Part shown: piece by piece, positions 6,780 through 49,920 of the stretch
How positions within the stretch are numbered: position 1 is the stretch's first letter
How the letters are laid out: every line of letters begins with the position of its first letter
NCBI GenBank assembly: GCA_964360585.1
Contig: CAYHXC010000001.1
Coordinates: 21,907-85,906 of the forward strand
Length of the DNA: 64,000 nucleotides
Direction of reading: 5' to 3'
Source of the DNA: an uncultured Candidatus Saccharibacteria bacterium
GTDB taxonomy: Bacteria; Patescibacteriota; Minisyncoccia; UBA6257; 2-01-FULL-56-20
Made by a program: the position numbers and the translations under genes
Notes under the pieces: model-generated
Database searches by the model: none
What the model saw: only the letters and a program-made list of their open reading frames with translations
What the model was told of the DNA's origin: nothing

Positions 6780-6964
6780 CTATAAACAGTTCAAGGATTA
6801 TAACCGCAACTTTATATGTTTGTCAATCAGGTCGTGAAAGTTCGAACTATGCGAATAAGAACTGGTCACTTTGAAAGCAATGTATTCTAGTAATTTGTCT
6901 TATATTGCCCAGGAAAACGGATTCCCTCCTTCGAACTTCTACTTCCTGACAATCGGATTGGAGG

Positions 6965-8605
6965 CTAGTTCACAATGAGGGTAATATGGGCCGAATTTCC
7001 CGGAACCCGCCAGAGCCACGGCGGCCAGATGCCAATTTTAGCTTGCTCGAGGCCGGGAAGATTCGAGAGGATAGCCTGGGCTTCACTTAATGATTTTCCG
7101 GCCAACTGACCCCCCAAGGTCTTCTCATCCAACGGACTGACGAGGACTGCTTCGCTCTTCACACCCACACTCATCTTTCCGTTTACAAAATCCGGCTGGG
7201 CGTTGGAATAGGTTAAGGTAACGGTCTTAAAAACCTGATCGGCATTTGTTTCCTTCATCATACTCTCGAAAACTCGCTTCACATCTTCTTCTTTAAAGGC
7301 GATCACGGATAACTGGCCATCGCCCTGCACATTGAAATTCCCCTGCTCGTCAACGGCTTTATCTACGGCCAGCTTGGAAATCTGGACGGTTGAGGCCTCT
7401 TTTAAAATTTTCAACTCCTCTGGCACGCGGCGTCGGATATCAATGTCGAGCGAGGACTGAAGAATGCTTTTTGTTTTTTCTTCCGCTTTCGCGATGTCCT
7501 CGTCGGTCGGGTACGGCGCTTCGCCGATCACACCGCCTTTGGCTTTTTCTTTCATAACCGCATAAAAACCGTCGTAGCGCGGCGTTCCTTTGAACCCAAC
7601 GACGGTCATTTTGTCGAACGGACCAACATTATAATCGCTTCCTGCCTGATCGGCCGTAACCGTGGTATCGATGCCGACCGGCGTGATCTTTCCATTATCA
7701 AGCTTGGCTCCGGGAATGGTGATCTTGTTGTCAAGACGAAATATTTTGCCGTCAGGCGTGGCCAATCGCGTGGTGGCAACGAGGGTCTGCGGCGACGAGT
7801 CATAGGCATTATAGAGCGTCACTTTGGCCGTGGCCTTTTGGGTGGTTTGCTTCTTACCGGATGCTTTAAAGAACTGGACGGTGTTTTTCTTTTCCGTGAA
7901 AAGCGAGGCGGGCACAATCACACCCCCCGCGCGAGCGGCTGCCGGCGATTTATCGGCCACAATAACCACACTCGACTGCCACGGTGTTTTTTTCTGGGTA
8001 ATTGAAATATCGGCTCGTCCCAAAGCGCGGCTGCCGCCCCAAAGACCGACACCGAAAACGATCAGTCCGAGAACAATAATCCAGGTATATCGCCGGCGTT
8101 TTGGTTCCGGTTCAAACGAAATTGATTCTTCGCTCTCTTCCACTTCCTCATCCTCTCCTTCACCTATCGCGATCTCTTCTTTTTTCTTGGAGTGAAACCG
8201 GGCGCGCAACTTCATGAATCGCCGCCGCGGTTTTTCGGCAACTTTTTCCTCTCGTTCTTCCTCCACCTCTCCCTCAACTTCCTCCTCGGCTTCTTCCGCC
8301 TTTTTTACGTGGTGGCGCGGACGAATATCAGAAAGCATCTCACGCTTTTTCGCTCCCTCAAAAAGCGGATGGATCCGCTCCAGTCCCTGTTTTTCAGCCA
8401 GTCCCAAAATATGCTCATCAATTGATTCGATGATGAGTGTTTTTCCGGCCTCTTCGGCGTGCTTTTTTAAAAGATGAAGATGATTCCCCTCGCCCAACTT
8501 CGAGCCGCGAGGCACGACGAGCGTGATGACATCATAGGGTGCGTCCGCTACTTTTTCCGCGAGAATGGTGACGGTTTCTTTCTTATCAACAAATATTTTG
8601 AACAT
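6965..8605 (-). CDS. Hypothetical single-pass membrane protein with acidic Glu-rich linker and large extracytoplasmic domain
   Basis: 546 aa. N-terminal cytoplasmic domain, EEEVEGEVEEE low-complexity stretch, TM segment (WIIVLGLIVFGVGLWGG), then ~350 aa outside. No family recognised. Confidence 0.4.
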   Translation of the reverse strand: MFKIFVDKKETVTILAEKVADAPYDVITLVVPRGSKLGEGNHLHLLKKHAEEAGKTLIIESIDEHILGLAEKQGLERIHPLFEGAKKREMLSDIRPRHHVKKAEEAEEEVEGEVEEEREEKVAEKPRRRFMKLRARFHSKKKEEIAIGEGEDEEVEESEESISFEPEPKRRRYTWIIVLGLIVFGVGLWGGSRALGRADISITQKKTPWQSSVVIVADKSPAAARAGGVIVPASLFTEKKNTVQFFKASGKKQTTQKATAKVTLYNAYDSSPQTLVATTRLATPDGKIFRLDNKITIPGAKLDNGKITPVGIDTTVTADQAGSDYNVGPFDKMTVVGFKGTPRYDGFYAVMKEKAKGGVIGEAPYPTDEDIAKAEEKTKSILQSSLDIDIRRRVPEELKILKEASTVQISKLAVDKAVDEQGNFNVQGDGQLSVIAFKEEDVKRVFESMMKETNADQVFKTVTLTYSNAQPDFVNGKMSVGVKSEAVLVSPLDEKTLGGQLAGKSLSEAQAILSNLPGLEQAKIGIWPPWLWRVPGNSAHITLIVN

Positions 8606-8607
8606 GC

Positions 8608-8730
8608 CAGGTAGTGAAAATTCGACTAGGAATTGCGAGACTCTTTATCATGAAAATAGATACTGGTTTGGATCACAGCTTTGAATTATAAACTAAAAAA
8701 GGCATGCCCGTCGAATTTCTACTCCCTGGT
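8608..8730. mobile_element. MITE-like element, family C (TIR CCAGGTAGTGAAAATTCGAC / GTCGAATTTCTACTCCCTGG)
   Basis: ~20-bp imperfect terminal inverted repeats flank ~80 bp of AT-rich sequence. The same TIRs occur at 27694-27828 and 42378-42475. One TIR abuts the ATG of the 6965..8605 gene. Confidence 0.5.
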
Positions 8731-9857
8731 TAATTATAGTTCATTGAACCCAACCAGTGAAGTCGCCGGCGCAACCAGCGATTAATCTCTGGACTGCCCT
8801 GGTCGGAAAAGAAATCGAGAAGCGGCGCGCAATAGGAAAATTGTTCATACGAAGGCATTGGCCAGGCCTCGCCGGGTACAGAAAACCCCATCTTTTCAAG
8901 CAGTGTCTGGATAGAAATAGGCTCGAAGGAAAAACGCCGCGAAGCAAGGTGGACATCTTCCTGGCTGGTTATCAAAATCTTGGTCGGGGCGCCGATTTTT
9001 TTCAAAGATTCTTCGAGATGTTCGGAAACATCTTTAAACTTTTTCTGCAGCTGCTCTTCAATTGCCGTAGGTAGCTGCTTTTTTTGATACAGTCCGTAGA
9101 GATCGCGGGCGATCTCCTCATTCACTCCCCAGGTCTCGATAAATACCTCAAGATACTCCTTGGCCGACCAGGGAATATCCCGCCGCTCGTCCATTCGTCC
9201 CGTCTCCGAATCAGCCGCTCGAAAAACCGATGACTGCGGCGACTCAAAAACCGCCAGCGCGAAGGGCGGTTTATACGCTTTCCGCAAAGCGGTCAGTTTC
9301 GCTTCGGCTAAACTAGTGAAGAAAAAATTTGGTCGGCGGATAAGATTGCGGAGAGATTCGTAGAGCTTCCGCTGGACAAATGTAATCTCAATCGCCGTTT
9401 GCAACTCTTGGGGTGTAAAACCGATTGGATTGTGAACACGATGACCGTCAATTCTAAAATCAATCACCCGACTGTCGGCTAAGACAACATCAAGATCGGG
9501 TACGCCGAGCGCCTGACTGGCGATTTTTCGGTATTTAATAAACTCCTGATTCACACCGCGATTCAAAAGATTTTCCAGTTCGGGAAAAGACAGTTCGGTT
9601 TTTTCCTCGCGATGAACCCGAAAAGAGACATCGGCGGTGTAGGCCAAACTTGGCGAAGCGGCAACAATGACTGTCCAGTAGGGCATAATCTTCGGCCACC
9701 ACCGTCCCGGCCGCGCAATATGAAACTCCGGCCAGAACTTTTCGCAGGTGATGGAACGATCGCGCGTTACCGCAAATAAAACCGCGCTCACCTTTTCGGG
9801 CGCGATTAAAAGTACGAAAAATTTTTCTCTTCGATCAAACGGATTAAACCAAATCAC
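8730..9857 (-). CDS. Hypothetical protein
   Basis: 375-aa ORF with uniform coding character. No family recognised; a weak actin-like/FtsA-like N-terminal pattern only. Confidence 0.35.
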   Translation of the reverse strand: MIWFNPFDRREKFFVLLIAPEKVSAVLFAVTRDRSITCEKFWPEFHIARPGRWWPKIMPYWTVIVAASPSLAYTADVSFRVHREEKTELSFPELENLLNRGVNQEFIKYRKIASQALGVPDLDVVLADSRVIDFRIDGHRVHNPIGFTPQELQTAIEITFVQRKLYESLRNLIRRPNFFFTSLAEAKLTALRKAYKPPFALAVFESPQSSVFRAADSETGRMDERRDIPWSAKEYLEVFIETWGVNEEIARDLYGLYQKKQLPTAIEEQLQKKFKDVSEHLEESLKKIGAPTKILITSQEDVHLASRRFSFEPISIQTLLEKMGFSVPGEAWPMPSYEQFSYCAPLLDFFSDQGSPEINRWLRRRLHWLGSMNYN

Positions 9858-17292: not shown

Positions 17293-17389
17293 CCCCCTGT
17301 CCTTAATCGTGAATCAGAGATTTCCTTCCTATGACCAATCAACTTAATTTTATTGACTGGCTCTCCATTCAAGACTAAGGACAGGGGGG
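17293..17389. mobile_element. Internally deleted derivative of the GIY-YIG element (14-bp TIR CCCCCTGTCCTTAA / TTAAGGACAGGGGG), inserted between the P2 and P4 3' strands of rnpB
   Basis: Same TIR as the pair flanking the GIY-YIG ORF at 17998-18282. The ends are similar (CCUUAGUC... / ...CGAUUAAGG). Only a ~9-codon ORF remains. Confidence 0.45.
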
Positions 17390-17638: not shown

Positions 17639-17997
17639 AAATTTCATCTTGTGCTTCCCAGTGCGAAGCACTGGAGTACGACCTTGCACTCAAGTAAGGA
17701 TTTAGCCGTTTCACCCTTCGACTTCGCTCAGGGTAAACCCTTCGATTTTACTCGAAAGCCCCAAGTTTATATGAAGGATCACCCCACTTCGCATAAAGCT
17801 CCGCGGGGCGGTTATATCCTTGCGGATATAACCGTCTCTGCTCGCACCTCTATCCTTCCCTTCAACTACGTTCAGGACTAGTAATCCTGAGTTACATCGA
17901 AGGATTGCGGACGGTGGCCGTTAACCACTACCGACTACGAAACTCTTTTAAGGATTAATCAGTCTTAAAAGAATCCCGTGAGTGTCCCGACTTTCCT

Positions 17998-18282
17998 CCC
18001 CCTGCCCTTAATCTTCGTTACTCGCCACAATACGTTTCTTTAATTCGCCGTAAGCTGTACTGAATTTTTTGAGCTGTCTTTCTCGTTTCTGAGCATCAGA
18101 CTTTTCGAGATAAGCTTCGTAATAAATCAGTACCCAGGGTTCTCGATATCTTGTTGCCGGAGATAAACCATTCTGATGCTCAGTAAATCTCCTTCGCAAA
18201 TTATCCGTACAACCAATGTACAGCTTACGATCTTTTTTACTTTTCAAAACGTACGTGTAGAACATCGACTAAGGGCGGGGGG
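17998..18282. mobile_element. GIY-YIG endonuclease element bounded by 14-bp inverted repeats, occupying the P3 position of rnpB
   Basis: TIR tccccctgcccttaa (17998-18011) and ctaagggcgggggg (18269-18282). The ORF start lies 3 nt inside one repeat and the stop codon lies within the other. Confidence 0.5.
18008..18265 (-). CDS. GIY-YIG nuclease family protein (small standalone, YhbQ/UPF0213-like)
   Basis: 85 aa, MFYTYVLKSKKDRKLYIGCTDNLRRRFTEHQNG...KSDAQKRERQLKK. Contains the GIY...YIG motif, the conserved Arg, and the Glu of the catalytic core. Confidence 0.75.
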   Translation of the reverse strand: MFYTYVLKSKKDRKLYIGCTDNLRRRFTEHQNGLSPATRYREPWVLIYYEAYLEKSDAQKRERQLKKFSTAYGELKKRIVASNED

Positions 18283-19132: not shown

Positions 19133-19258
19133 CCCTACACCTAATGAGAAAAATAAAGCAACGTAGCTTTGAGTACAGGAACTATTTACCAATGAGAAAG
19201 TCGCCAATTCTACCAAGTTTTGTCGTTTTAGAACGACTATTTCTTATTAGGTGTGGGG
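19133..19258. mobile_element. MITE-like element, family A (TIR CCCCTACACCTAATGAGAAA / TTCTTATTAGGTGTGGGG)
   Basis: ~19-bp inverted repeats flank ~90 bp with an internal hairpin. A second copy with a perfect TIR lies at 46184-46316. Confidence 0.5.
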
Positions 19259-25405: not shown

Positions 25406-25941
25406 TCGGCGGCTTGCCGCGAGGTTACCATATAAAAACTTATGATAGAATGGCCGCATGGGCGTAACCCGGAGTCATCACTGTGTCTACGACACGCACT
25501 ATCATGTCGTCTTTCCCGTTAAGTATCGCAAAGCTTTGCTATCAGGACCTCTCACTCAAGCGATTCTGGAAATCGCCCAGGACATAGAAGAACGGTATGA
25601 AGTCACGTTTGAGAAGATTGGCACCGATGGCAACCACATTCATATCCTGTGGGCTTTCCACCCCAAGTACAGCGCCACCGACATGGTGCGTCGGTTCAAG
25701 AGCATCACCGCTCGCGAACTCTTCCGGCGATTTCCGGAATTGCGTCGTGACTTGTGGGGAGGCGAGTTCTGGACTGATGGCTACTCCATCGCTACAGTCG
25801 GTACCGGCGGCGATTGGAAAACCGTCGAACGATATGTGGCCAACCAGGGAAAGACGACAGGGCATAACCTCCAGCTCAGACTCTGGCAGTGAGCCCAGGT
25901 GGCCATTCCGCTTCATACCCCGTCGGCTTGCCGCGGGGTGG
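25406..25941 (+). mobile_element. IS200/IS605-family insertion sequence (TnpA only) with subterminal imperfect palindromes
   Basis: Subterminal hairpins cctcggcggcttgccgcgagg (25407-25427) and cccgtcggcttgccgcggggtgg (25919-25941) bracket a single Y1-HUH transposase gene. The element interrupts arsR-B without an obvious target duplication, as expected for IS200/IS605. Confidence 0.7.
25458..25892 (+). CDS. tnpA: IS200/IS605 family transposase TnpA (Y1 HUH)
   Basis: 144 aa, HYHVVFPVKYRK...GNHIHILWAFHPKYS...ITARELFRRFPELRRDLWGGEFWTDGYSIATVG. The HUH motif (HIH) and catalytic Tyr region are present. Confidence 0.8.
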   Translation: MGVTRSHHCVYDTHYHVVFPVKYRKALLSGPLTQAILEIAQDIEERYEVTFEKIGTDGNHIHILWAFHPKYSATDMVRRFKSITARELFRRFPELRRDLWGGEFWTDGYSIATVGTGGDWKTVERYVANQGKTTGHNLQLRLWQ

Positions 25942-27246: not shown

Positions 27247-27638
27247 CCCATGTATGTGTAAACCCCACCTCGAAAGTGTCCGCAGGACTGTATCAATTGA
27301 GAAATCGAACATCTACCTGAGCTATCAGAAATCGACACTCCTGACTCTAAGTGTCTCGGAAGATTATCTGGAACGCAAAAACCGTTACACTGATTATCGT
27401 CATTACACTGCTTTCCAGCATCACTCAGGGGAAAATAACATTGCGGGTTTGAGATTCTCCATCCTACTGCTTCAATCCCCCAAACACCTCCCCAAACACG
27501 ACACCATATTTCACTCACACGTTGAGGCTGAGTGGTGCTATGTACGACGATAGAAAAACCGGAAGGATTAAAAAGATAAAGAAAAACGAGTATAAGGATA
27601 CTTCCCAAAACCACTCCTCCAGCCACTCGCTTTATCAT
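27234..27638 (-). CDS. Hypothetical small secreted cysteine-rich protein
   Basis: 134 aa, N-terminal TM/signal segment, 8 Cys in the mature part. Confidence 0.35.
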   Translation of the reverse strand: MIKRVAGGVVLGSILILVFLYLFNPSGFSIVVHSTTQPQRVSEIWCRVWGGVWGIEAVGWRISNPQCYFPLSDAGKQCNDDNQCNGFCVPDNLPRHLESGVSISDSSGRCSISQLIQSCGHFRGGVYTYMGCPR

Positions 27639-27693
27639 TGTATTTCATTATACTCGAGTATTTCTATATAATGAAAAGACCTGGGCTAGCTTA

Positions 27694-27828
27694 TGCCAGG
27701 TGGTAGAAATTCGATAGGCACGCTTTCTACTCTTTGTTTTAGAAAATCTAGACGAACTTCTTACATGCTCAGTGATTTCCATCTTAATTCACTTCCTAAA
27801 TAATAATCGAATTTTCACTACCTGGTAT
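27694..27828. mobile_element. MITE-like element, family C copy (TIR CCAGGTGGTAGAAATTCGATA / ATCGAATTTTCACTACCTGG)
   Basis: Inverted repeats flank ~90 bp. The right TIR ends 1 nt before the ndh ATG. Confidence 0.5.
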
Positions 27829-29104
27829 GGATAAAAAGAAAATACTGATTCTCGGCGCGGGCTTCGGCGGTCTCAAAACCGCTTTCCGACTGGCCGATGG
27901 ACTGAAACACAACAATCTCCTCGAAAAATATGAGGTTATTCTTATCGATCGGTATGAGCACCACACCTTTACTCCTCTCCTCTACGAGACCGCGACAACC
28001 TCTAAAGAAACGATTGACCTTGTCCGCCTCCATAGTCTCGTCACGCATAATGTGCGGAACCTGATCAATGGCTATCCGATTACATGTATCGAGGATATGA
28101 TTCGTGAGATTCGTCCGGGATCGGGCGAAGTCGTATTAGAAAAATCAGGCGCCGTCAAAGCAGAATATATCGTTCTCGCGCTCGGTTCGGAAGCCAACTA
28201 TTTTGACATGCCCGGCCTTAAGGAACACTCACTCACCCTCAAAACATTTACTGACGCTATTCGCATTCGGGATACAGTTCTTGATCTTACTGAAAATAAA
28301 GAATCGGGTATTCGCATTGTCGTCGGCGGCGCTGGACCAACGGGCGTCGAACTCGCCGCAGAACTCTCAAACTGGCGGCGTCGCGAGTCGGAAAAGTTAA
28401 GCTCGAAACTGAAAGTCACACTCGTTGAAGCCCAGCCCACCGTCCTTTTTGGCTTTCTGCCCTCCATCATTGCGGCAGCCGAGAAACGCCTTGCCGCTCT
28501 CGGTGTCGAAATGAAAACAAACACAAAGATTTCCGAACTGACAAAAGATACGGTCAAGTTCGAAAATGGCGAAGAGATGCCGGTTGATCTTTTTATCTGG
28601 ACTGGTGGGATTAAAACCCCGGAACTCCTCCAGCATTTGCCGCTCAAAAAAGAGGAGCGCGGCAAGATTGAAACCACTTCTTCGATGGACTGCTTACCCG
28701 AAACATCGGACTTATCGTTTGGCGCAAAAGTATACGGCCTTGGCGACAGTGTCTGTTTTCATGATCCGATTACGAAAAAACCAGTGCCGGCTGTTGCCCC
28801 GGCGGCGCTCGCCCAAGCTTCGGTTGTGGCCTACAACATCTTGGAAGATATCCGCGGCAAGGAGGGAATGGGTCCGATCGGCCACCGAATATACATACCA
28901 GTGAACTATCCTTACGTCATTCCCGTTGGTGGCAAATTTGCGATCGCAAGAATCGGTCCGCTTGTTCTCGGAGGATTCTTAGGTTGGCTCGTAAAAGGTG
29001 TGGTCGAACTCCACTACCTTTTCTCGATCATGCCTACATGGCAAGCGCTCCGCGTTTGGGCCCGAGGCCTGCGTGTCTTCTCAACCAACGACCAGCTGGG
29101 GTAA
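27827..29104 (+). CDS. ndh: Type II NADH dehydrogenase / FAD-dependent pyridine nucleotide-disulfide oxidoreductase
   Basis: 425 aa, two Rossmann dinucleotide motifs (ILILGAGFGG and VVGGAGPTGVELAAEL). Confidence 0.7.
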   Translation: MDKKKILILGAGFGGLKTAFRLADGLKHNNLLEKYEVILIDRYEHHTFTPLLYETATTSKETIDLVRLHSLVTHNVRNLINGYPITCIEDMIREIRPGSGEVVLEKSGAVKAEYIVLALGSEANYFDMPGLKEHSLTLKTFTDAIRIRDTVLDLTENKESGIRIVVGGAGPTGVELAAELSNWRRRESEKLSSKLKVTLVEAQPTVLFGFLPSIIAAAEKRLAALGVEMKTNTKISELTKDTVKFENGEEMPVDLFIWTGGIKTPELLQHLPLKKEERGKIETTSSMDCLPETSDLSFGAKVYGLGDSVCFHDPITKKPVPAVAPAALAQASVVAYNILEDIRGKEGMGPIGHRIYIPVNYPYVIPVGGKFAIARIGPLVLGGFLGWLVKGVVELHYLFSIMPTWQALRVWARGLRVFSTNDQLG

Positions 29105-32058: not shown

Positions 32059-32457
32059 TTAAGAGACAAGGCCCTTTTCTTTCATGGTGGGGTAGAGTTT
32101 TTTAACCAAAGCATCGTGAAAAGCGTCGAGAACAAACGGTGTCGTCTTTCGCGCCTCCCGATCAGCCGAGAGAATCCCTTTGTGGAAAGCAATATCCAAG
32201 AGATACTCGACTTCGAGCTTCATTTCGGGTGGCGCGTTTTCCACATACTGCGGTAACGGGTTCTGAAGGTTGGTTGGCGGGTCAATCGGACCGTTCCCGG
32301 CCGTCGCAAATGACTGGATCGAGCGCTTTAAAAGGGCTTCGCCGCCTAAATGTCTTGTCTCCAGTGCCTCTCGATGTTTCCCCACCTCCTCGGCCAGCCG
32401 CTTCATGTCGTTCTCGAGAGCCTGGTGTTCAAATTCTGGTAGCAATTGTTCAGTCAT
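32059..32457 (-). CDS. Hypothetical coiled-coil protein
   Basis: 132 aa, directly upstream of the ATPase gene on the same strand. Confidence 0.35.
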   Translation of the reverse strand: MTEQLLPEFEHQALENDMKRLAEEVGKHREALETRHLGGEALLKRSIQSFATAGNGPIDPPTNLQNPLPQYVENAPPEMKLEVEYLLDIAFHKGILSADREARKTTPFVLDAFHDALVKKLYPTMKEKGLVS

Positions 32458-32460
32458 AAA

Positions 32461-32500: not shown

Positions 32501-32676
32501 GATAGGAAGGAATCTAGAATTTAGGAGTTAGAATCTAGTTATGAAGTAGTAGTGGCAGGATTAGTCCAGAAGCCGCCCCTCTAACTCCTAGATTCTAAAT
32601 TCTAATTCCCTCGAGTGCTGGTCCTCTCTCCTATCCCCTAGTCACTCATCACTAGTTCCTGTTACTATAGTATACA

Positions 32677-34679: not shown

Positions 34680-34710
34680 TAAAACTCCCGAGGTTAACTC
34701 GGGAGTTTTG
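34680..34710. terminator. Bidirectional terminator (aaaactcccgag gttaa ctcgggagtttt)
   Basis: 12-bp perfect stem between the convergent + region and rplU. Confidence 0.6.
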
Positions 34711-35011
34711 TGATTTCTACTTCAGTGAATGGCTGGCGGTGGCCTTTGCGGCGACGCAAGCGAGTTTTGGAATGGTACTTGAAGATTAACTTCTTTTCGC
34801 CTCGTCCTTGCATGAGAACCTTGGCGGCAACTTTCTCCGAGGCTACATAAGGCTGACCAACTTTAACAGTGTCACCATTAACGTTCAGAAGCACACGATC
34901 AAAAGAAATATCGCTTCCGGAAGCGGCTTCTAATTTTTCGATTTTCAGTTTGTCGCCAGCGGAAACCTTGTACTGCTTCCCGCCGGTTTCGATGATTGCG
35001 AAATTTGGCAT
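34694..35011 (-). CDS. rplU: 50S ribosomal protein L21
   Basis: 105 aa, MPNFAIIETGGKQYKV...GHRQPFTEVEI, L21 family. Confidence 0.85.
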   Translation of the reverse strand: MPNFAIIETGGKQYKVSAGDKLKIEKLEAASGSDISFDRVLLNVNGDTVKVGQPYVASEKVAAKVLMQGRGEKKLIFKYHSKTRLRRRKGHRQPFTEVEITKLPS

Positions 35012-36870: not shown

Positions 36871-37032
36871 GAACCCATCTCAAAAATAGAATCACGCAGT
36901 CTTCCGGCTAGATTCGGCTATAAACCCACCCGACCCTCCTTGAAATACCATAGGGTATTCCTGTCTCGGGTCGGATGGTTCTCGCTCGAATCTATCACGG
37001 AATACCCCTGTGCCTATTTTTGAGATGGGTTC
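36871..37032. mobile_element. MITE-like element, family B (162 bp; TIR GAACCCATCTCAAAAATA / TATTTTTGAGATGGGTTC)
   Basis: 18-bp perfect terminal inverted repeats. A second, inverted copy at 58429-58589 is about 95% identical over its full length. Confidence 0.55.
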
Positions 37033-38921
37033 TAACTTTTTTTAGAAAGTTGGGAAGATAAACGGTGCAAGTAGTACCACTCGAAAATATCTTTAGCGAT
37101 CGGGACGGCGTTCAAGCTCCCCTGTTTGGCGTTTTCAACTAAAACCAAAATTGCTAATTCAGGCTTGTCCGTTGGCGCATAGCCAACGAAGAAAGCATTT
37201 TCCACAGTGTTATTTTGCGTCTGGGCCGTTCCCGTCTTGGCCGCAATCGTCATCGGTAAACCGGAAAGCAGATGGCTTGTTCCCAAAGTAGATTGTACAC
37301 CCAACTCCATCCCTTTTTGTGCATACCGAATCTCCGGGGCTAGATGGGTGAGATCACGAGTTACTTCTGGTTTTTGGAGGTCAGCAGCAAGATAGGGCTG
37401 ATAGAGCGTCCCGCCATTCGCGATAACCGAAATATAGTTCAAAATCTGAAGTGGTGTCACCTGCAAGTCTCCTTGACCGATACTCACGTTGTACGTATCT
37501 CCCAAGAGCCACGGCCGCTTTCTTCGTTTCTCGGCTTCTTCAAGATTTGGAAGGCGTCCTGTCCCCTCGCCGGCAATATCAATCCCGCTCTCCCGACCCA
37601 TCCCGAACATGTCCCACCAGGCGAGAAGACGGGTAATGCCAAGTCCTTGAATGTCGCCGAAGCCGCCGCCGACTTCGTAAAAATAAACGTTACTCGACTG
37701 GGCAATGGCGGACATGACATTCACGTAGCCCTGCGGCCGCCAGTCTAAAAACCGGGTTGGTTTTGATGGGTCGAATCGGTTCGGCACATCGAGATAGCCG
37801 GGAGAGTAGATGGAACGGTCGGGCGTGATTACTTTTTCTTTCAAGGCAGCCACCGCGACCAAAGGTTTGATCGTCGAACCGGGACTATAAAAACCGGAAA
37901 CAATGCGGTTAAAAAACGGATGGAGCGGCGCGGTTAAAATTTTTTGTTTCTCCTCATTTTTCCCCGGCGAAGAAAGAATAGTGTTGTCGTAGCTGGGAAG
38001 ACTGATCATGGCCAGTATTTCGCCGGTCTGTGGATTCATGGCCAAACCAGCGCCCGACTCTCTCCCTAAGGAAGCGAGGCCTTGCGTCAGGCGGTTATAA
38101 AAATACTTCTGCAGTCCGCTATCAATCGTGAGGCGGAGCGCATTCCCGGAAACTGGTTCGACAGACTCGGCCTGGTTCAAGGCCACACCCTTGGCGTTCC
38201 GACGCTCGGCCGTGTAACCATTTATTCCGCGAAGCGCGTCATCATAGTAGGCCTCGATACCCGCCTTTCCGACAATAAGCTCGTTTTTGAGCTTCGGATT
38301 TCTCGCGAGACTGGCCGCATCAATTCGTCCGGTGTATCCAAGGACGGTGGCGAACTGGGGACCGTCTTTATAGTCACGCGTAAATCCTGGTCGAACAGTC
38401 ACTGGGAGATCGGTCTGCGATTGGAAGGCCACAATTTGCGCCTCATCCAGTCCTTCGCTGATCAAAATCTCATCTTTTTCTCGCGCCACACCTTCCAGAA
38501 TTTCTTCTTCTAAAGTATCCGGGGTAACTTTCAAAATATCAGAAACTCGCCTCATGATCGTTATGCGGTTGGTTGATGAAGCGATAAATTCCTTGAGGCG
38601 CAGGAAGGCCAGGAAACTTGGTTGATTGTCGGCCAAGACCACGCCGTTCCGATCAGTAATCACACCGCGCGGCGCCGGATCAATCTTTCGCGCTTCAAGG
38701 TTGGCAATGGCTCTCGTTCTATATTCAGCATACGAAAATGGCCCTAAAATCAGCATCCGCACGAAGATAATAGAGACCAAGAGGCTGGCCGAAAGACCGA
38801 CAATCTGGAAAACGTGGCTCTTGATCGGCATTTCGGCAATCTCCAAACTGTTCACCAATTCGTCCGCGGATAATCCTTCAAAGGAAAAATCGAATTCTTT
38901 TTCCTGGGAATGATTCTTCAT
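37032..38921 (-). CDS. mrdA: Penicillin-binding protein 2 / peptidoglycan D,D-transpeptidase
   Basis: 629 aa, N-terminal TM, dimerisation domain, transpeptidase motifs STIKP and KTGTA. Lies immediately downstream of mreBCD. Confidence 0.8.
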   Translation of the reverse strand: MKNHSQEKEFDFSFEGLSADELVNSLEIAEMPIKSHVFQIVGLSASLLVSIIFVRMLILGPFSYAEYRTRAIANLEARKIDPAPRGVITDRNGVVLADNQPSFLAFLRLKEFIASSTNRITIMRRVSDILKVTPDTLEEEILEGVAREKDEILISEGLDEAQIVAFQSQTDLPVTVRPGFTRDYKDGPQFATVLGYTGRIDAASLARNPKLKNELIVGKAGIEAYYDDALRGINGYTAERRNAKGVALNQAESVEPVSGNALRLTIDSGLQKYFYNRLTQGLASLGRESGAGLAMNPQTGEILAMISLPSYDNTILSSPGKNEEKQKILTAPLHPFFNRIVSGFYSPGSTIKPLVAVAALKEKVITPDRSIYSPGYLDVPNRFDPSKPTRFLDWRPQGYVNVMSAIAQSSNVYFYEVGGGFGDIQGLGITRLLAWWDMFGMGRESGIDIAGEGTGRLPNLEEAEKRRKRPWLLGDTYNVSIGQGDLQVTPLQILNYISVIANGGTLYQPYLAADLQKPEVTRDLTHLAPEIRYAQKGMELGVQSTLGTSHLLSGLPMTIAAKTGTAQTQNNTVENAFFVGYAPTDKPELAILVLVENAKQGSLNAVPIAKDIFEWYYLHRLSSQLSKKS

Positions 38922-41154: not shown

Positions 41155-42378
41155 TTACTCGGCTATCATATTCCGAGCATCTTCCAAAGACAAAACGTGA
41201 ACCTCTTCTTCTCCGCGCCGCTTCAGCTCAACCTGCGATCCCAATTTTGGGCTGACCACCATTCGCCAGGGAATACCGATCAGATCCGCATCGGCAAATT
41301 TTTCTCCGGCGCCAACCGCTCTGTCGTCATAGAGTACTCGAATGCCGGCCGCTTGTAAATTCTCATAGATCTCGTCCCCCGAGGCCTCGCCCAGAGAAAG
41401 CAGATGCACCTGGAATGGCGCTACGGCCTTCGGCCAGGTCAGGCCCTTTTCATCATGAAATACCTCGGCCAGGACGCCCATAAGGCGGGAGATGCCAATG
41501 CCATAACAGCCCATGATCACCTCCCGCTCCGTGCCATCCTTATCTTTATACAATAGCTCAAATGGCGACGAGTACTTGGTTTTGAGCTTGAAGATGTTTC
41601 CCACCTCGGCGCCAACTGACTCTTTAAGATCGCTCGAACCACAGTTTGGACAGGTTGACTGTTCCTCAATAATTTCCTTATTAATGGCGACCCGGCAGTT
41701 GTTACATATATAGATCGTGTCCTCACCGGACTCGGTCAGTGTCTGAAATTCGTGCGAGTATTTGGCAAAGGTACCGCCGGAAGCAAAAGTAAAATATGTT
41801 TTCTCGCCAATTCCTAAACGATCATAAATGCGAACATAGGCCTCGCGAACGGTTTCGTAATAACGATCGAGATCCGCCTCGTCAGCGTGAAAGGAGTAGA
41901 GATCCTTCATTAAAAATTCCCGACCGCGCAACAAACCGGACTTGGCTCGTTTTTCATCACGGAATTTTGTCTGAATTTGAAAAACGCATTTCGGCAGATC
42001 CTGGTACGAAAGAATACTCCGCTTCGCGAGCGGCGAGACAATCTCTTCGTGCGTTGGACCAAGGGCGTACTCATTTTGGGAGTAGTGGCTCATAAAACGG
42101 AAAAGCGTGTCGTATGTTTTCCAACGATCAGTTGTTTCCCAGTTCTCTTTCGGCTGAAGAGCTGGCATCAGAATTTCTTCTCCGCCAATTTTCTGCATCT
42201 CTTCGCGAACTATGTTTTCGATATTTTTCAGCACGCGCAAACCGAGCGGTAAATAGGAATAGACACCGGCCATTAGCTTATCTACAAAACCAGCGCGGAT
42301 TAAAAGCTGAGCATTAACTGCCGCTTCATCCTTCGGAGCATTGCGTAATGTTTTTGAAAAAAGTTCAGATTGCCGCAT
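41155..42378 (-). CDS. proS: Prolyl-tRNA synthetase, short form lacking the editing insertion
   Basis: 407 aa, class II motifs (FRDE..R..GLLRGREFLMKD.YSF), a CxxC...CxxC zinc insertion, no INS domain. Confidence 0.75.
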   Translation of the reverse strand: MRQSELFSKTLRNAPKDEAAVNAQLLIRAGFVDKLMAGVYSYLPLGLRVLKNIENIVREEMQKIGGEEILMPALQPKENWETTDRWKTYDTLFRFMSHYSQNEYALGPTHEEIVSPLAKRSILSYQDLPKCVFQIQTKFRDEKRAKSGLLRGREFLMKDLYSFHADEADLDRYYETVREAYVRIYDRLGIGEKTYFTFASGGTFAKYSHEFQTLTESGEDTIYICNNCRVAINKEIIEEQSTCPNCGSSDLKESVGAEVGNIFKLKTKYSSPFELLYKDKDGTEREVIMGCYGIGISRLMGVLAEVFHDEKGLTWPKAVAPFQVHLLSLGEASGDEIYENLQAAGIRVLYDDRAVGAGEKFADADLIGIPWRMVVSPKLGSQVELKRRGEEEVHVLSLEDARNMIAE

Positions 42379-42475
42379 ACCGGGTAGTCGAAATTCGAAT
42401 AATTAATAAAATAGTTTTCACGCCATTCCAGGCAGGTTCTGGGATGAAAACCCTTTCGAATTTTCACTACCCGGC
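42378..42475. mobile_element. MITE-like element, family C copy (TIR CCGGGTAGTCGAAATTCGAA / TTCGAATTTTCACTACCCGG)
   Basis: 20-bp inverted repeats flank ~55 bp. One TIR abuts the proS start codon. Confidence 0.45.
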
Positions 42476-42605
42476 ATGCCTGTATTGGTACAAGCGTATC
42501 ACGCGTCCCATCGCTTGGCAAAATAGAAATATCCTCCTTCGCTCATAAGCTACGAAAGGATTATTTTTCTCGAAAAGAAGGGATAAAAAAAGTCGTCTAG
42601 TAAAA

Positions 42606-46318: not shown

Positions 46319-47065
46319 TCATGCAGTAGATTCGTTCGGTTTAATAATTATATCAGAGAAATGCTCGGCCTGTTCGATGATGATGGTTTGTTCGCGAGCG
46401 AGATGGAGAATCGCCAAAAAAGCGACGATAACGTCCGATCGGTCTCCTGATTTTGATAATTTGGAAAAGGTTGTCTCCTCAATGCGGTGCAACCGCTCAA
46501 GAATATGCTGCATTTTTTCCTCAAGCGTCACGATCACACTCCGCATAACCTCTTCCTCCAGAATGATCTTCTGAAGCGATTGGGTCAGTCGTTCCATGTG
46601 AGGAATGAGATTTTCAAGTGCGAGCGTCTCCCCGGGATAAAAAGTATTGTGCGATACATCCTGCGGCAGGTTTCTCGAGATAGAAAGAAAATAAGGACGA
46701 CTGGATTCCTTTTCCTCCGAACGCCAGAGTTGGGCGACCAACCTTCCCGCCTCCTTGAACTCCCGATAGGCCTTCAACCGCTCTTCAAGTTCAACCAGAT
46801 TTTCTTCGTCTTCCATTGTCATCGGAAGATCGGGCAAAAGAGATTTCGATTTTAAAAGGATCAGCTGGCTCGCGATCACAATAAAATCAGCCAGCAAGGC
46901 CGGCGGCGCTTCGCCAAGCGTTTCCACGTGTTTCAAAAAGTCATCGGTCACTTTGGCCATGCTCAAACGGCTCACATCCATCTTCTCCGATTCGATGAGT
47001 TCAAGAAGTTTGTCTAACGGCCCGGAGAACTCTCCGAGACGCAGTTCATAAGAGACAATGATCAT
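46319..47065 (-). CDS. scpA: Segregation and condensation protein A (kleisin)
   Basis: 248 aa, ScpA family. Confidence 0.7.
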   Translation of the reverse strand: MIIVSYELRLGEFSGPLDKLLELIESEKMDVSRLSMAKVTDDFLKHVETLGEAPPALLADFIVIASQLILLKSKSLLPDLPMTMEDEENLVELEERLKAYREFKEAGRLVAQLWRSEEKESSRPYFLSISRNLPQDVSHNTFYPGETLALENLIPHMERLTQSLQKIILEEEVMRSVIVTLEEKMQHILERLHRIEETTFSKLSKSGDRSDVIVAFLAILHLAREQTIIIEQAEHFSDIIIKPNESTA

Positions 47066-48675: not shown

Positions 48676-49920
48676 TTATTGTTCTTTAAGATACGCGCCG
48701 ACACGATAGTTATTTGAGGGACTCCAGATCATCCAACCATCAACGAGAGAAGGTGTGCCGGACGCCACGTCATTCAAAGCATTGATCTGTTTGCGAATCA
48801 TAGTCGAGTCGTAGGTGGCACCAAGATCAAAATCCTGGAACCAGGGACGAAGTTTACCAAGTGGTCGATCAAGAACAACCGTGCTCGAAGGTTCCATACT
48901 CGCCGCTTTTAATGCCTTCAGCTTACCAACGGCTTTCTCTACGGAATAGTAGACGACTTCATAGGGATACTCCGCGGGATTTTTGAAGCCGAGAAAACCT
49001 TGAGCGTAGTGCGAAGGATAGACCATCGGCGAGACATAATCAAAATAGCGGTAGGCGTCTTCAATTATTTGGCCGATTCCCAGATCGTCGTTATTGACGG
49101 TGGCCAATCCGAAAAGATCGGCGGACAATCGAGCCTGCGGCATCTGGCTCCGAACGTACCGGAAAAATTCTTTGATAACCGTATGTCGGGCAGTTTTCTG
49201 ATCCCAGTAAGGATACCCGATCAGCTTCAGATTTCCGTCCGAAGGAAAACGAACGTAGTCAAAATTGATCTCATCAAAGCCGCGCGCCAAAGCATCCTTG
49301 GCAATGGCAACATTGTAATCCCACACTGGTTTGGCTGATGCGTCCATCCAAGTCAGTCCTTTCCGATCTTTCCAGGTGGCCGTCGTTGATCCCTGTTTCA
49401 GAGCCCACTCGGGATGCGCTTTCGCCAACACCACATCCTGAAAAACAGAGACTCGTCCGATGACATAGATTCCAGCGTCATGCAGTTCTTTAATCGTCCG
49501 GTTGGGATATTTTATTTTTGGACTAACCCCGGCTTTACTATCCACCACTTCAGGGATCTCTGCAGTATACGACAACTCCCCTGAGTAGTCTTTGATATCA
49601 ATTACCACGGCACTGATCTCAGTCTCAGACGCGATTTTCTTCACATACTCAATTTTTTTACTAAGGCCGGCCGACCATCCTGTAAGATAGATAGCTTTGA
49701 TGGAAGCGGGTGGATTGGCGAGCGGCGAAGTATTCGGAATATCACCGTTTGAAAGAGTTGAAGTTTGACTCGTTGTTCCCTGGCCGGTCGTTATCGTTGA
49801 ACTTCCTTTCTCTTGCAACCCCACAATGGGCTTTCCCACTGCCACTTCACGCGGTCCAGCGAAAGAGAAAAGGCCAGCTCCAATAACTAACGCCCCCATG
49901 ATGCCAGCCGCGAATTTCAT
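48676..49920 (-). CDS. Putative TIM-barrel glycoside-hydrolase-like protein (COG1306/DUF4015-like), secreted, with Thr/Ser-rich linker
   Basis: 414 aa. Signal/TM, TTGQGTTSQTSTLSNG linker, then ...IKAIYLTGWSAG...VVIDIKDY... core. Confidence 0.4.
   Translation of the reverse strand: MKFAAGIMGALVIGAGLFSFAGPREVAVGKPIVGLQEKGSSTITTGQGTTSQTSTLSNGDIPNTSPLANPPASIKAIYLTGWSAGLSKKIEYVKKIASETEISAVVIDIKDYSGELSYTAEIPEVVDSKAGVSPKIKYPNRTIKELHDAGIYVIGRVSVFQDVVLAKAHPEWALKQGSTTATWKDRKGLTWMDASAKPVWDYNVAIAKDALARGFDEINFDYVRFPSDGNLKLIGYPYWDQKTARHTVIKEFFRYVRSQMPQARLSADLFGLATVNNDDLGIGQIIEDAYRYFDYVSPMVYPSHYAQGFLGFKNPAEYPYEVVYYSVEKAVGKLKALKAASMEPSSTVVLDRPLGKLRPWFQDFDLGATYDSTMIRKQINALNDVASGTPSLVDGWMIWSPSNNYRVGAYLKEQ

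What the first reader, a model, noticed from the sequence alone, without database searches (positions are those of the whole stretch)
8608..8730. MITE family C delivers an almost identical 20-nt leader immediately upstream of three unrelated start codons
Elements at 8608-8730, 27694-27828 and 42378-42475 share ~20-bp terminal inverted repeats (CCAGGTAGTGAAAATTCGAC-like). In all three copies one repeat ends 0-1 nt from an ATG.

The three affected genes are the 546-aa membrane protein, ndh and proS. Each therefore has the leader ...UUCGAAUUUUCACUACCYGGY-AUG and no Shine-Dalgarno sequence. Either these elements carry an outward-facing promoter or translation signal, or genes preferentially tolerate this insertion site.

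The same positional pattern holds for family A at the scpB start (46184-46316) and family D at 49920-50050.
Basis: seen in the sequence. Interest (0 to 1): 0.6.

Follow-up and report, generated by a model that had tools for sequence, protein, structure and literature searches.

The report
Start-codon-targeting mini transposon with GIY-YIG nuclease
The short repeats next to three start codons are stripped-down copies of a roughly 320-base mobile element, widespread in ultra-small groundwater bacteria (Patescibacteria), which carries one tiny GIY-YIG nuclease gene, inserts at a gene's ATG and duplicates it, so one ATG copy serves the element and the other restores the host gene.

Summary
The window, a Patescibacteria genome from Hainich groundwater, holds four family C copies. 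Three end 1 nt from the true start codons of a 546-aa gene, ndh and proS.

That 1 nt plus the ATG is a 4-bp target-site duplication, TATG|element|TATG at ndh. Orthologous ndh loci lack the element and show a TATAAT box 7-9 nt before the ATG.

The 19-nt end occurs in at least 118 stretches from about 57 other species genomes. Of 132 complete elements, 90 abut an ATG that opens a long ORF. Of 72 with a perfect TATG duplication, 67 do so, against 13-33% expected. Orientation is biased 78:11.

A 288-350 bp version with the same ends encloses one ~90-aa Slx1/UPF0213-like GIY-YIG nuclease gene. In 29 of 38 sites its ORF starts at the duplicated host ATG and reads through the end in frame (MPGSENS...). 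No DDE partner was found.

So the shared leader is a by-product of start-codon-directed integration. No family-wide outward promoter or Shine-Dalgarno substitute was found, and the genome rarely uses SD anyway (7 of 58 genes). Six literature searches found no prior description. The mobility mechanism and the effect on host expression are inferred, not shown.

The parts
8607..8729 (-). Family C copy C1, 123 bp. Arm a' is 8607-8626 and arm b is 8710-8729 on the + strand. Read in the direction of the host gene, arm a is next to the gene, which is the minority orientation.
8603..8606 (-). CATG flank of C1. It contains the ATG (8605-8603, minus strand) of the 546-aa ORF 6965..8605. The other flank is TTAA, the stop codon of upstream ORF 8730..9857, so no duplication is visible at this copy.
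27696..27825 (+). Family C copy C2, 130 bp. Arm b' is 27696-27714 and arm a is 27807-27825. Arm a is next to ndh, the minority orientation.
27692..27695 (+). Left copy of the 4-bp target-site duplication TATG of C2.
27826..27829 (+). Right copy of the duplication TATG of C2. Its ATG (27827-27829) is the ndh start codon.
27645..27680 (+). Conserved ndh promoter region (TTCATTATACTCGAG...TTCTATATAATGAAAAG, TATAAT at 27667-27672). It is retained upstream of C2. In the empty orthologous loci the same TATAAT lies 7-9 nt before the ndh ATG.
42380..42474 (-). Family C copy C3, 95 bp. Arms are 42380-42398 and 42456-42474. Read in the direction of proS it runs arm a' to an arm-b-like end, the majority orientation.
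42376..42379 (-). TATG on the minus strand. It is the gene-side duplication copy of C3, and its ATG (42378-42376) is the proS start codon.
42475..42478 (-). CATG, the promoter-side copy of the duplication of C3. It differs from the gene-side copy at the first base and opens only a short reading frame into the element.
6827..6949 (-). Family C copy C4, a degenerate 123-bp copy with a 3-bp duplication CAA/CAA. It lies between the stop of the 546-aa ORF and the infA promoter, not at a start codon.

Best explanation
Family C is the non-autonomous (MITE) form of a very small mobile element that is widespread in Patescibacteria.

**Structure.** The autonomous form is 288-350 bp. It has two 19-20-bp inverted ends that always differ at the same two positions (arm a and arm b). 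Between them sits a single ~90-aa GIY-YIG nuclease gene of the UPF0213/Slx1 branch, which fills the whole interior.

**Integration (shown from sequence).** The element integrates with a 4-bp, sometimes 3-bp, target-site duplication that is nearly always (T)ATG, and usually the ATG is the start codon of a gene. The gene-side copy of the ATG restores the host start codon, which is why the end of the element sits 1 nt from the ATG. In most autonomous copies the promoter-side copy is the start codon of the nuclease ORF. That ORF reads through the end in frame (MPGSENS...), so the element borrows the host gene's transcription and its initiation codon.

**Mechanism (inferred).**
- The nuclease is the mobilising enzyme.
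- Integration keeps a fixed orientation relative to the asymmetric TATG. One possibility is 4-nt staggered cuts outside the ends and at the target, followed by joining of compatible overhangs. Another is an asymmetric protein-DNA complex.
- The long hairpin or cruciform formed by the ends may be what an Slx1-like, structure-specific nuclease recognises.

**Host expression (inferred).** The host gene is then transcribed from its old promoter through the element. It is translated without an SD, as most genes of these organisms appear to be. Insertions at SD-dependent starts are removed by selection.
For: **Target-site duplication**
- The two flanks covary: TATG/TATG in 64 elements, CATA/CATA in 8, plus CTTA, TTTG, CGTA, CAAG and TATA pairs.

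**Empty sites**
- ndh orthologues at 71, 59 and 57% identity have PGK and ndh 43 nt apart with ...TATAAT(7-9 nt)ATG. The window keeps the same promoter and then has TATG[130 bp]TATG.
- Further filled and empty ortholog pairs exist among the fetched loci.
- L038 and L103 carry the element at the same gene start in opposite orientations.

**Generality**
- The exact 19-mer occurs in at least 118 stretches from about 57 species assemblies, nearly all Patescibacteria.
- 90 of 132 elements abut an ATG that opens 60 or more codons.
- 67 of 72 elements with perfect TATG or CATA duplications do so, against 13-33% expected. The binomial p is at or below 1e-27, computed for 68 of 72 before the count was corrected.
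- 10 of 10 sampled host ORFs have Pfam domains starting at residues 1-12.

**Orientation**
- 78 elements have arm b next to the gene and 11 have arm a (p about 3e-13, computed on 79:12).

**Autonomous form**
- Six genome loci and 55 distinct metagenome sites have the same ends enclosing a GIY-YIG ORF.
- 67 of 80 homologue loci have recognisable ends.
- In 29 of 38 sites with a flanking ATG, the ORF from that ATG runs into the nuclease (p 7e-8).
- About 60% of database proteins begin MPGSENS.
- The host ATG lies 21-22 nt after the nuclease stop codon.

**The nuclease**
- Pfam GIY-YIG, E 2e-17.
- Y6, Y17, R27 and H31 are conserved.
- The nearest solved structures are UPF0213 proteins and Slx1.

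**No alternative enzyme**
- None of the 124 arm-a hits belonged to an element of 0.8 kb or more.

**Selection**
- SD-like motifs occur upstream of 3 of 113 targeted starts against 84 of 627 controls (Fisher p 4e-4).
Against: - No activity is known for this GIY-YIG branch. GIY-YIG enzymes hydrolyse DNA and are not known to catalyse strand transfer, and a 4-bp duplication is classically a DDE-transposase signature.
- Presence or absence differs only between species. All Hainich contigs carrying the three host genes also carry the elements, so recent mobility is not shown.
- My gene calls for the null model are crude: first ATG of ORFs of 100 or more codons. This inflates the 'intergenic' class.
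- About 10% of copies differ at the first duplicated base (CATG/TATG), and C1 shows no duplication at all. These cases are unexplained.
- A second GIY-YIG ORF in the window, which I first took for an independent TIR family, turned out to sit inside the RNase P RNA gene. It is not independent support for transposition.
- How the host gene is translated behind a 20-23-bp hairpin that pairs the A and U of its AUG is unknown.
Confidence: 0.72

Rival explanations
1. Integration is specific only for the tetranucleotide TATG. The association with start codons is produced afterwards by selection. Copies inside genes, promoters or terminators are lost. Copies at start codons of SD-independent genes survive because the duplication regenerates the ATG.
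For: - T at -1 is much more frequent at targeted starts (83-92%) than at control starts (45%), so there is a plain sequence preference.
- Targeted starts are depleted in SD motifs, 3 of 113 against 13% of controls, which is a mark of selection.
- Upstream contexts are mixed: leaderless-type -10 boxes, operon-internal junctions (37 of 113) and a few SD-led starts. No common feature other than the ATG is evident.
- Copies with other duplications (CTTA, TTTG, CGTA, TATA) lie outside starts.
Against: - Non-start TATG sites outside genes are 2-6 times more numerous than TATG start codons in the same loci. Yet only 5 of 72 perfect-TATG copies are at non-start sites.
- Insertion after terminators or between convergent genes should be the least harmful position, but it is rare.
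- Selection on the host does not obviously explain the 78:11 orientation bias of copies without an ORF.
Confidence: 0.3
2. The element is kept next to start codons because it supplies an outward-facing promoter or an SD-independent translation signal, so it acts as a portable expression cassette.
For: - Individual copies have sigma-70-like matches pointing at the host gene. C1 has TCGACG-18-TATAAT (10 of 12 positions) and C2 has TTTCCA-17-AATAAT (9 of 12).
- 13 of 101 mid-size copies have a -10-like hexamer at one fixed offset after a GC hairpin.
- The orientation bias could reflect a directional function.
Against: - The conserved ends contain no SD and no acceptable -10 box. TCTACT and TTCACT both lack the A at the second position.
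- Promoter-like matches lie in the variable interior, are absent from C3 and show no family-wide position.
- The ancestral ndh promoter is retained upstream of C2, so no new promoter is needed.
- The ends pair with each other and sequester part of the AUG.
- The autonomous form shows that the orientation is the one that expresses the element's own gene.
Confidence: 0.12
3. The elements are ordinary MITEs mobilised in trans by an unlinked DDE transposase, for example of an IS5-, IS630- or IS1380-like family. The GIY-YIG gene is only a passenger that happens to fit between the ends.
For: - A TIR plus a 4-bp duplication is the DDE signature (general knowledge of IS families).
- No GIY-YIG enzyme is known to perform transposition.
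- 13 of 80 homologue loci show no recognisable ends.
Against: - Among 124 arm-a hits in about 57 genomes, no pair of ends encloses anything longer than about 330 bp.
- The nuclease ORF fills the interior exactly, with its stop codon at the first bases of the far end and its start in the flanking duplication.
- This layout is kept intact at 55 distinct sites at 70-85% protein identity, which indicates selection on the ORF as part of the element.
Confidence: 0.13
4. The repeats are not mobile. They are a conserved cis-regulatory leader or structured RNA shared by a regulon.
For: - The same sequence lies directly 5' of many start codons.
- Predicted folding is strong, with z-scores of -7.7 and -4.9 for C3 and C2.
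Against: - The flanks are duplicated, orthologous sites are empty, the same gene is hit in opposite orientations, the interiors are variable, nested copies exist and a protein-coding version exists.
- No Rfam family matches.
- Host genes are functionally unrelated.
Confidence: 0.02

Closest known systems
Bacterial MITEs such as Correia elements (Neisseria) and ERIC/RUP elements
   Same: - Size of about 100-150 bp with terminal inverted repeats and a short target duplication.
- Many copies in intergenic DNA, co-transcribed with neighbouring genes.
- The ends form a long RNA hairpin.
   Different: - Correia elements duplicate TA, derive from or depend on DDE-type elements and are scattered in intergenic DNA (my knowledge).
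- Here the duplication is (T)ATG, the site is the start codon itself, the orientation is fixed and the partner encodes a GIY-YIG nuclease.
Free-standing and intron-encoded GIY-YIG homing endonuclease genes (T4 Seg proteins, I-TevI)
   Same: - A selfish GIY-YIG nuclease gene inserted between or next to host genes.
- Intron-encoded versions are often translated in frame with upstream host sequence.
   Different: - Homing endonucleases have added DNA-binding domains, cut a cognate empty allele and spread by homologous repair. They have no inverted ends, no target duplication and no non-autonomous derivatives (my knowledge).
- This protein is a bare ~90-aa domain, structurally nearer to UPF0213 and Slx1 than to I-TevI.
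- The element occupies many unrelated sites.
UPF0213 (BH0048, EF2693) proteins and the Slx1 structure-specific endonuclease
   Same: - Best sequence and fold matches: 1zg2 at E 1e-6, and Slx1 chains with Foldseek probability 1.0 and TM-score (query-normalised) 0.56-0.63.
- The conserved Tyr, Tyr, Arg and His are shared.
   Different: - UPF0213 proteins have no assigned function.
- Slx1 works with Slx4 on branched DNA in eukaryotic repair and is not part of a mobile element.
- Whether the protein here cuts hairpins or cruciforms is untested.
IS200/IS605 and other minimal insertion sequences
   Same: - A very small autonomous element with a single small ORF.
- DNA hairpins are important at the ends.
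- The target is a specific tetra- or pentanucleotide.
   Different: - IS200/IS605 elements are 0.7 kb or more, use a Y1 HUH transposase and have no inverted ends and no duplication (my knowledge).
- The window does contain such a transposase gene at 25458-25892, but it is unrelated to family C.
Site-directed integration at transcription start sites (yeast Ty3) and in-frame palindromic elements (Rickettsia RPEs)
   Same: Mobile DNA whose position is tied, at nucleotide precision, to a gene-expression landmark.
   Different: - Ty3 is a retrotransposon guided by Pol III factors.
- RPEs insert inside coding sequences.
- Neither duplicates a start codon nor uses it for its own ORF (my knowledge).

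Membership tests
MITE (non-autonomous TIR element) | Terminal inverted repeats | tested here: met
   The arms are 19-20 bp and 80-88% complementary in the window copies. They are near-identical across 132 elements.
MITE (non-autonomous TIR element) | Target-site duplication that varies with the site | tested here: met
   85 of 132 elements have identical 4-bp flanks. Pairs covary: TATG, CATA, CTTA, TTTG, CGTA, CAAG and TATA. C2 in the window has TATG/TATG.
MITE (non-autonomous TIR element) | Small size, no coding capacity and many copies | tested here: met
   Elements are 60-160 bp (101 of 132 are 91-200 bp), and reading frames from the flanking ATG stop inside them. One roughly 1-Mb-class MAG alone yielded at least 22 loci.
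MITE (non-autonomous TIR element) | An autonomous relative with the same ends | tested here: met
   A 288-350-bp form with the same arms encloses a GIY-YIG ORF.
MITE (non-autonomous TIR element) | Empty orthologous sites | tested here: met
   ndh loci L224, L225 and L227 lack C2. No polymorphism was found within the source population.
GIY-YIG nuclease superfamily | Match to the GIY-YIG domain, with the GIY and YIG tyrosines and the Arg and His conserved | tested here: met
   PF01541 at E 2.3e-17. Y6, Y17, R27 and H31 are invariant or at least 90% conserved in 33 sequences. The match of this spacing to I-TevI is from my knowledge.
GIY-YIG nuclease superfamily | The GIY-YIG alpha/beta fold | tested here: met
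   The AlphaFold model has pLDDT 86. Top PDB matches are UPF0213 and Slx1 nuclease domains.
GIY-YIG nuclease superfamily | Nuclease activity | not testable with these tools
   This needs a purified protein and DNA substrates.
Homing endonuclease gene | Spread by cleavage of a cognate empty allele and homologous repair, with no inverted ends and no duplication | tested here: not met
   The element has inverted ends and target duplications, sits at dozens of unrelated gene starts and has ORF-less derivatives.
DDE-transposase IS families with 4-bp duplications (IS5, IS1380, IS701; IS630 with TA) | A DDE transposase gene between the ends | tested here: not met
   No pair of family C ends encloses more than about 350 bp among the 124 arm-a hits and 55 autonomous sites. 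The genome scan was truncated, so a rare DDE copy cannot be excluded.
Correia element / Neisseria MITE | TA duplication and the Correia TIR sequence | tested here: not met
   The duplication is TATG and the ends are CCRGGTAGTGAAAATTCGAC. The Correia features themselves are from my knowledge.
Leaderless gene (as the target class) | Transcription start at the A of the ATG | tested here: inconclusive
   TANNNT starts at -12 in 16% of 113 targeted sites against 4.3% expected. The empty ndh sites have TATAAT 7-9 nt before the ATG. However, 37 of 113 sites are operon-internal and a few are SD-led. No 5'-end data are available.

The most novel reading that the evidence does not exclude
These elements are a previously unrecognised class of prokaryotic DNA transposon. 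The only protein is a ~90-aa Slx1/UPF0213-like GIY-YIG nuclease. The autonomous unit is about 320 bp, which would make it the smallest known self-encoding mobile element. Integration is directed to start codons, so the element captures the host gene's promoter and ATG for its own ORF while the duplication keeps the host gene intact. If so, part of the very large family of orphan small GIY-YIG proteins (17,572 clusters at E of 1e-3 or better) may be mobility enzymes.
Probability: 0.5. Interest if true: 0.9.

Novelty: new variant of a known kind. Interest (0 to 1): 0.8.

Why it matters
- **A new transposition route.** It would add a nuclease family, GIY-YIG of the Slx1/UPF0213 branch, to the short list of enzymes that move prokaryotic TIR elements. 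It would also set a new lower size limit for an autonomous mobile element.
- **A possible role for orphan proteins.** The small stand-alone GIY-YIG (UPF0213) proteins, solved by structural genomics in 2005, still have no assigned function.
- **A new parasitic strategy.** Integration at the start codon with duplication of the ATG expresses the parasite from the host's own signals and leaves the host ORF intact.
- **A probe of Patescibacteria gene expression.** These organisms cannot be cultured easily. Genes that tolerate a 130-bp hairpin between promoter and AUG must be translated without an SD and probably without a free 5' AUG.
- **A practical annotation issue.** Gene callers already mis-extend or mis-start genes at these sites. 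Proteins beginning MPGSENS or MKIR are in public databases.

Tried and rejected
- **Known RNA family.** The window gave no Rfam match on any element.
- **Family-wide outward promoter.** Consensus scans of the three window copies and a positional scan of 101 mid-size copies found only scattered matches.
- **In-frame N-terminal extension of host proteins by the MITE, as in Rickettsia RPEs.** (Length + 4) mod 3 is spread 29/28/22, and only 3 in-frame fusions were seen.
- **Tight stop-start coupling of the MITE's short ORF to the host ATG.** Stop positions are scattered, mostly 20-90 nt upstream.
- **A DDE or larger autonomous partner.** None was found among the arm pairs.
- **Presence/absence polymorphism in the Hainich population.** None was found for C1, C2 or C3.
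- **The source genome among the fetched GTDB loci.** There was no nucleotide match.
- **Generalising families A, B, D and E.** Too few copies occur outside the window.
- **The window's second GIY-YIG ORF (18008-18265) as an independent TIR family.** Rejected: its inverted repeat lies in the RNase P RNA gene.
- **Link to the IS200-type Y1 transposase at 25458-25892.** Rejected: that family makes no TIRs or duplications, and the ORF scores as IS200/IS605, not as a REP-associated transposase.
- **Literature.** Six full-text searches on MITE, start codon, CPR, GIY-YIG, inverted repeats, target-site duplication, UPF0213 and COG2827 found no description of such an element. The 2006 GIY-YIG survey does not mention one.
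Full report
**1. What is in the window**

The window comes from a Patescibacteria (CPR) population in Hainich groundwater. Its ndh product is encoded identically on ENA contigs Hain_H51.

The TIR consensus TTCGAATTTTCACTACCYGG matches five times at 3 or fewer mismatches, against 0.01 expected. Inverted-repeat detection pairs these matches into four elements:
- C1, 8607-8729
- C2, 27696-27825
- C3, 42380-42474

The interiors are unrelated in sequence.

The two ends of each copy are not the same. One is arm a (TCGAATTTTCACTACCYGG). The other is arm b (TCGAATTTCTACYNCCTGG), or an intermediate form in C3.

In C1, C2 and C3 one end is followed by one base and then an ATG.
- The ndh ATG is a true N-terminus. 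The protein starts MDKKKILILGAGFGG, and 120 homologues are 405-448 aa.
- The proS ATG is a true N-terminus. The protein starts MRQSELFSKTL and has the tRNA-synt_2b and HGTP_anticodon domains.
- The 546-aa ORF has no Pfam or NCBIfam match. Its start is less certain.

**2. The ATG belongs to a target-site duplication**

C2 is flanked by TATG on both sides (27692-27695 and 27826-27829). C3 has CATG and TATG. C4 has CAA and CAA. C1 has CATG and TTAA, so no duplication is visible there.

These come from about 57 assemblies, nearly all Patescibacteria of many lineages, including Parcubacteria, Portnoy-, Yanofsky-, Lipton-, Komeili-, Kaiser- and Nealsonbacteria.

In these loci plus the window I found 132 distinct elements with one a end and one b end, and never a/a.
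- 85 have identical 4-bp flanks: TATG/TATG 64, CATA/CATA 8 (the same thing in the opposite orientation), and covarying pairs such as CTTA, TTTG, CGTA, CAAG and TATA.
- This covariation shows that the 4 bp are duplicated target, not part of the element.

**3. The duplicated ATG is usually a gene's start codon**

- 90 of the 132 elements abut an ATG that opens 60 or more codons.
- Among perfect TATG or CATA duplications the figure is 67 of 72.
- Ten randomly chosen host ORFs all have Pfam domains beginning at residues 1-12. They include a Mur ligase, trigger factor, Lon, SOD, an ABC ATPase, a nucleotidyl transferase, NYN, HD and a PolX-type HhH protein.

For a null model I used crude gene calls in the same loci. 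TATG occurs 283 times at gene starts, 1853 times in 'non-coding' DNA and 3739 times in coding DNA. Allowing for the inflated non-coding class, 13-33% of tolerated TATG sites would be start codons. The observed 93% gives a binomial p at or below 1e-27 (computed on 68 of 72 before I corrected the count to 67).

Orientation is also biased. Arm b lies next to the gene in 78 elements and arm a in 11, with one ambiguous (p about 3e-13, computed on 79:12). C3 has the majority orientation; C1 and C2 have the minority one.

**4. Empty sites**

ndh orthologues at 71, 59 and 57% identity sit in the same PGK/ndh/DUF87 neighbourhood, with only 43 nt between the divergent PGK and ndh start codons. The spacer reads TTTATTATACTCGAG..TTCTATATAAT followed by 7-9 nt and the ATG.

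The window keeps this promoter block (27645-27680, TATAAT at 27667-27672). It then has ...GACCTGGGCTAGCT-TATG-[130 bp]-TATG-GATAAA. This is a clean filled-versus-empty comparison. It also shows that ndh was ancestrally leaderless or nearly so.

Other filled and empty ortholog pairs occur among the fetched loci. L038 and L103 carry the element at the same gene start in opposite orientations, which implies independent hits on one start codon.

**5. The autonomous partner**

Seven of the 132 elements are longer than 200 bp. Six of these, at 306-327 bp, consist of arm a', a complete GIY-YIG ORF and arm b, with the stop codon at the first bases of arm b. The ORF starts MFYYVYILQS..LYIGYT and matches Pfam PF01541 at E 2e-17.

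A protein search returned 1264 homologues. The best 120 are 74-100% identical and 86-119 aa long. About 60% of them begin MPGSENS(T/I)AIM. In those cases the called ORF starts at the flanking ATG and reads through arm a' in frame.

A metagenome scan gave 80 homologue loci.
- 64 have family C ends and 3 more have a variant end, CCCCGTAGTAGAATTTCAAA.
- These reduce to 55 distinct sites of 288-350 bp.
- 26 sites have TATG/TATG.
- At 42 sites a host ATG abuts the far end, and at 37 of these it opens a long ORF.
- In 29 of the 38 sites with a flanking ATG, the ORF from that ATG spans the nuclease (p 7e-8).

In two well-sampled loci the element sits inside an operon. The upstream stop is followed by 4 nt, then ATG|arm, and the host ATG lies 21-22 nt after the nuclease stop.

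None of the 124 arm-a hits belongs to a longer element, so I found no DDE-type partner.

**6. The protein**

Y6, Y17, R27 and H31 are invariant or nearly so. The closest solved structures, by sequence and by fold, are the function-unknown UPF0213 proteins BH0048 and EF2693, followed by Slx1 nuclease domains. I-TevI and UvrC are much more distant.

A profile search of 1.84 billion cluster representatives finds 17,572 clusters at E of 1e-3 or better, 4,011 at 1e-10 and 12 at 1e-30. The family C clade is therefore compact and lies inside a very large family of small GIY-YIG proteins.

**7. What kind of start codons are hit**

I collected 113 distinct sites with an ATG on both sides and a host ORF.
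- The -10-like pattern TANNNT starts at -12 in 16% of them, against 4.3% expected (p 2e-6), which is leaderless spacing.
- 37 sites are operon-internal, with an upstream ORF stop within 20 nt.
- Only 3 have an SD-like motif. By my rough estimate chance would give about 8%, and control starts show 13% (Fisher p 4e-4).
- T at -1 is 83-92% at targeted sites against 45% in controls.

Two conclusions follow. There is a real sequence preference for TATG. There is also a sign of selection, because SD-dependent starts are avoided. No single upstream feature is shared by all targets.

In the window itself only 7 of 58 crude gene starts have an SD-like motif. 'No SD' is therefore the norm for this organism, not a property of these three genes.

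**8. Effect on the host gene (inference only)**

In a read-through transcript the two ends pair. Predicted energies are -51 kcal/mol for C3 (z -7.7) and -38.7 for C2 (z -4.9). The stem extends into the duplication, so the A and U of the host AUG pair with the upstream copy.

The ends contain no SD. The best -10-like hexamers in them, TCTACT and TTCACT, lack the A at the second position.

Promoter-like matches facing the host gene exist in the variable interiors of C1 and C2, but not in C3. Only 13 of 101 mid-size copies share a -10-like hexamer at one offset.

The short ORF that starts at the upstream ATG (MPGSENS...) ends at scattered positions, mostly 20-90 nt before the host ATG. One untested possibility is that translating it keeps the stem open.

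**9. Mechanism proposed**

Shown:
- inverted ends, target duplication, empty sites, start-codon position and orientation bias;
- a nuclease ORF that starts in the duplicated ATG.

Inferred:
- The GIY-YIG protein mobilises both forms.
- Integration preserves orientation relative to the asymmetric TATG. Copies without an ORF show the same bias, so selection for nuclease expression cannot explain it in them.
- One simple model is a set of 4-nt staggered cuts outside both ends and at the target, followed by joining of compatible overhangs. This would explain the constancy of the TATG, the fixed orientation and scarless excision.
- That model does not explain the rarer duplications of other sequence, or the roughly 10% of CATG/TATG pairs.
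- The strictly conserved a/b heterology (a two-base mismatch in the stem) and the Slx1-like fold suggest recognition of a hairpin or cruciform.

**10. Comparison with the known, and novelty**

The window copies meet every MITE criterion I could test. The partner element fails the criteria for homing endonuclease genes, because it has ends, duplications and many unrelated sites. It also fails those for DDE insertion sequences, because no DDE gene was found.

Six full-text literature searches and the 2006 GIY-YIG survey gave no description of such an element. The library does not cover most subscription journals.

I rate it a new variant of a known kind: a TIR transposon and MITE with a new enzyme class and a new target logic. 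There is about an even chance that it deserves to be called a new class of transposon.

**11. Limits**

- No experiment has been done, and no transcript data are available.
- The gene calls are crude.
- The genome scan was truncated and was seeded on arm a.
- Presence and absence differ only between species.

Noticed in passing
window 17986-18282 (minus strand); also 17293-17388; loci L237 and L245: A second small GIY-YIG ORF (18008-18265, 45% identical to the family C nuclease) is bracketed by a 13-bp inverted repeat (CCCCCYGCCCTTA). That repeat lies directly 5' of AGGAAAGTCGGG, the conserved CR-I/P4 strand of RNase P RNA. In relative L237 the ORF (601-855) is followed at once by RNaseP_bact_a at 164 bits. 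The ORF therefore appears to sit in the P3 hairpin loop of rnpB. A second hairpin with the same arms lies at the P18 position in L237 (1090-1130). In the window, the hairpin at 17293-17388 has similar arms and may be the equivalent. The arms differ in sequence between genomes but keep their pairing. Rfam at gathering threshold misses rnpB in the window.
   Followed up: partly
window 27234-27638 (minus strand): A 134-aa Cys-rich ORF with an N-terminal hydrophobic segment and no Pfam match sits between the conserved divergent promoter and the PGK start. It overlaps the PGK ATG. In three relatives PGK starts directly at that promoter. This is a separate insertion at a start codon.
   Followed up: partly
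window 6797-6826 (minus strand), next to C4: A perfect sigma-70 consensus promoter (TTGACA-18-TATAAT, 12 of 12 positions) begins at the base next to the end of C4. Its TTG is the duplicated target triplet. The infA ATG (6779) lies 17 nt after the -10 box.
   Followed up: partly
window 27681-27691: An ACCTGGGCTAGCT stretch lies between the conserved ndh promoter and the left TATG of C2. It is absent from the empty orthologous sites. Its CCTGG resembles the tip of a family C end, so it may be a footprint of an earlier insertion.
   Followed up: no
loci L151, L154, L160, L164, L173, L178, L201, L205, L217: A sub-lineage of the autonomous element has ends CCGGG...AAAACTCGA and always carries the duplication TGGA, at a conserved site (..ATGnnnTAT(T/C)(G/A)n TGGA CCGG..). 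This site seems to lie inside another repeat or a gene N-terminus. Either the duplicated sequence is inherited with the lineage or there is a second specific target.
   Followed up: no
loci L101, L112 (two copies), L119: 71-bp copies are nested inside arm a' of another copy at GTGAAAA^AAAATTCGAC with an AAAA duplication. The composite looks as if it has been amplified as a unit.
   Followed up: no
window 36869-37034 and 58421-58596: Family B consists of two nearly identical 166-176-bp elements with 21-bp perfect TIRs (TAGAACCCATCTCAAAAATAG), in opposite orientations. The end of the first supplies the stop codon (TAG) of the penicillin-binding-protein gene 37032..38921. Their GC-rich interior has no Rfam match.
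   Followed up: no
window 46184-46316 (family A), 19133-19258 (family A), 49919-50049 (family D): Family A at scpB has ATGAA repeated on both sides, with a 1-nt offset on one side, so this duplication also includes the start codon. Family D has a 23-bp perfect TIR that itself includes TTCAT/ATGAA, so the ATG of gene 48676..49920 is inside the repeat. The second family A copy is not at a start codon.
   Followed up: partly
window 35012-35040, 47066-47095, 32458-32490, and 32468-32507 on the + strand: C-rich heptamer-like repeats (ACCCCTA/CCCTAA-like, for example acccctaacccctaacccctaacccctATG) run right up to the ATG of several minus-strand genes (34694..35011, 46319..47065, 32059..32457).
   Followed up: no
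window 25458-25892: An IS200/IS605-type Y1 transposase gene (NF033573 at E 2e-35; only a weak match to REP-associated transposases) has TAGAAT 7 nt before its ATG. I found no link to family C.
   Followed up: partly
locus L232/L235 (protein P0263): Another small GIY-YIG gene is flanked by direct repeats of a tRNA-like segment interrupted by a GC hairpin (GCCAACTTAGTCCGCCCGGC...GGCGGACGGGCTCAGCTG), next to two tRNA genes. This suggests that tRNA genes are a further target for this protein family.
   Followed up: no
public protein databases (proteins P0001-P0120): Gene callers annotate the nuclease with three different N-termini: MFYY, MPGSENS.. from the flanking ATG, and MKIR.. from a GTG inside the end. 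Host genes next to the elements risk mis-called starts; for example, the ORF listing starts scpB at a GTG inside the family A repeat.
   Followed up: partly
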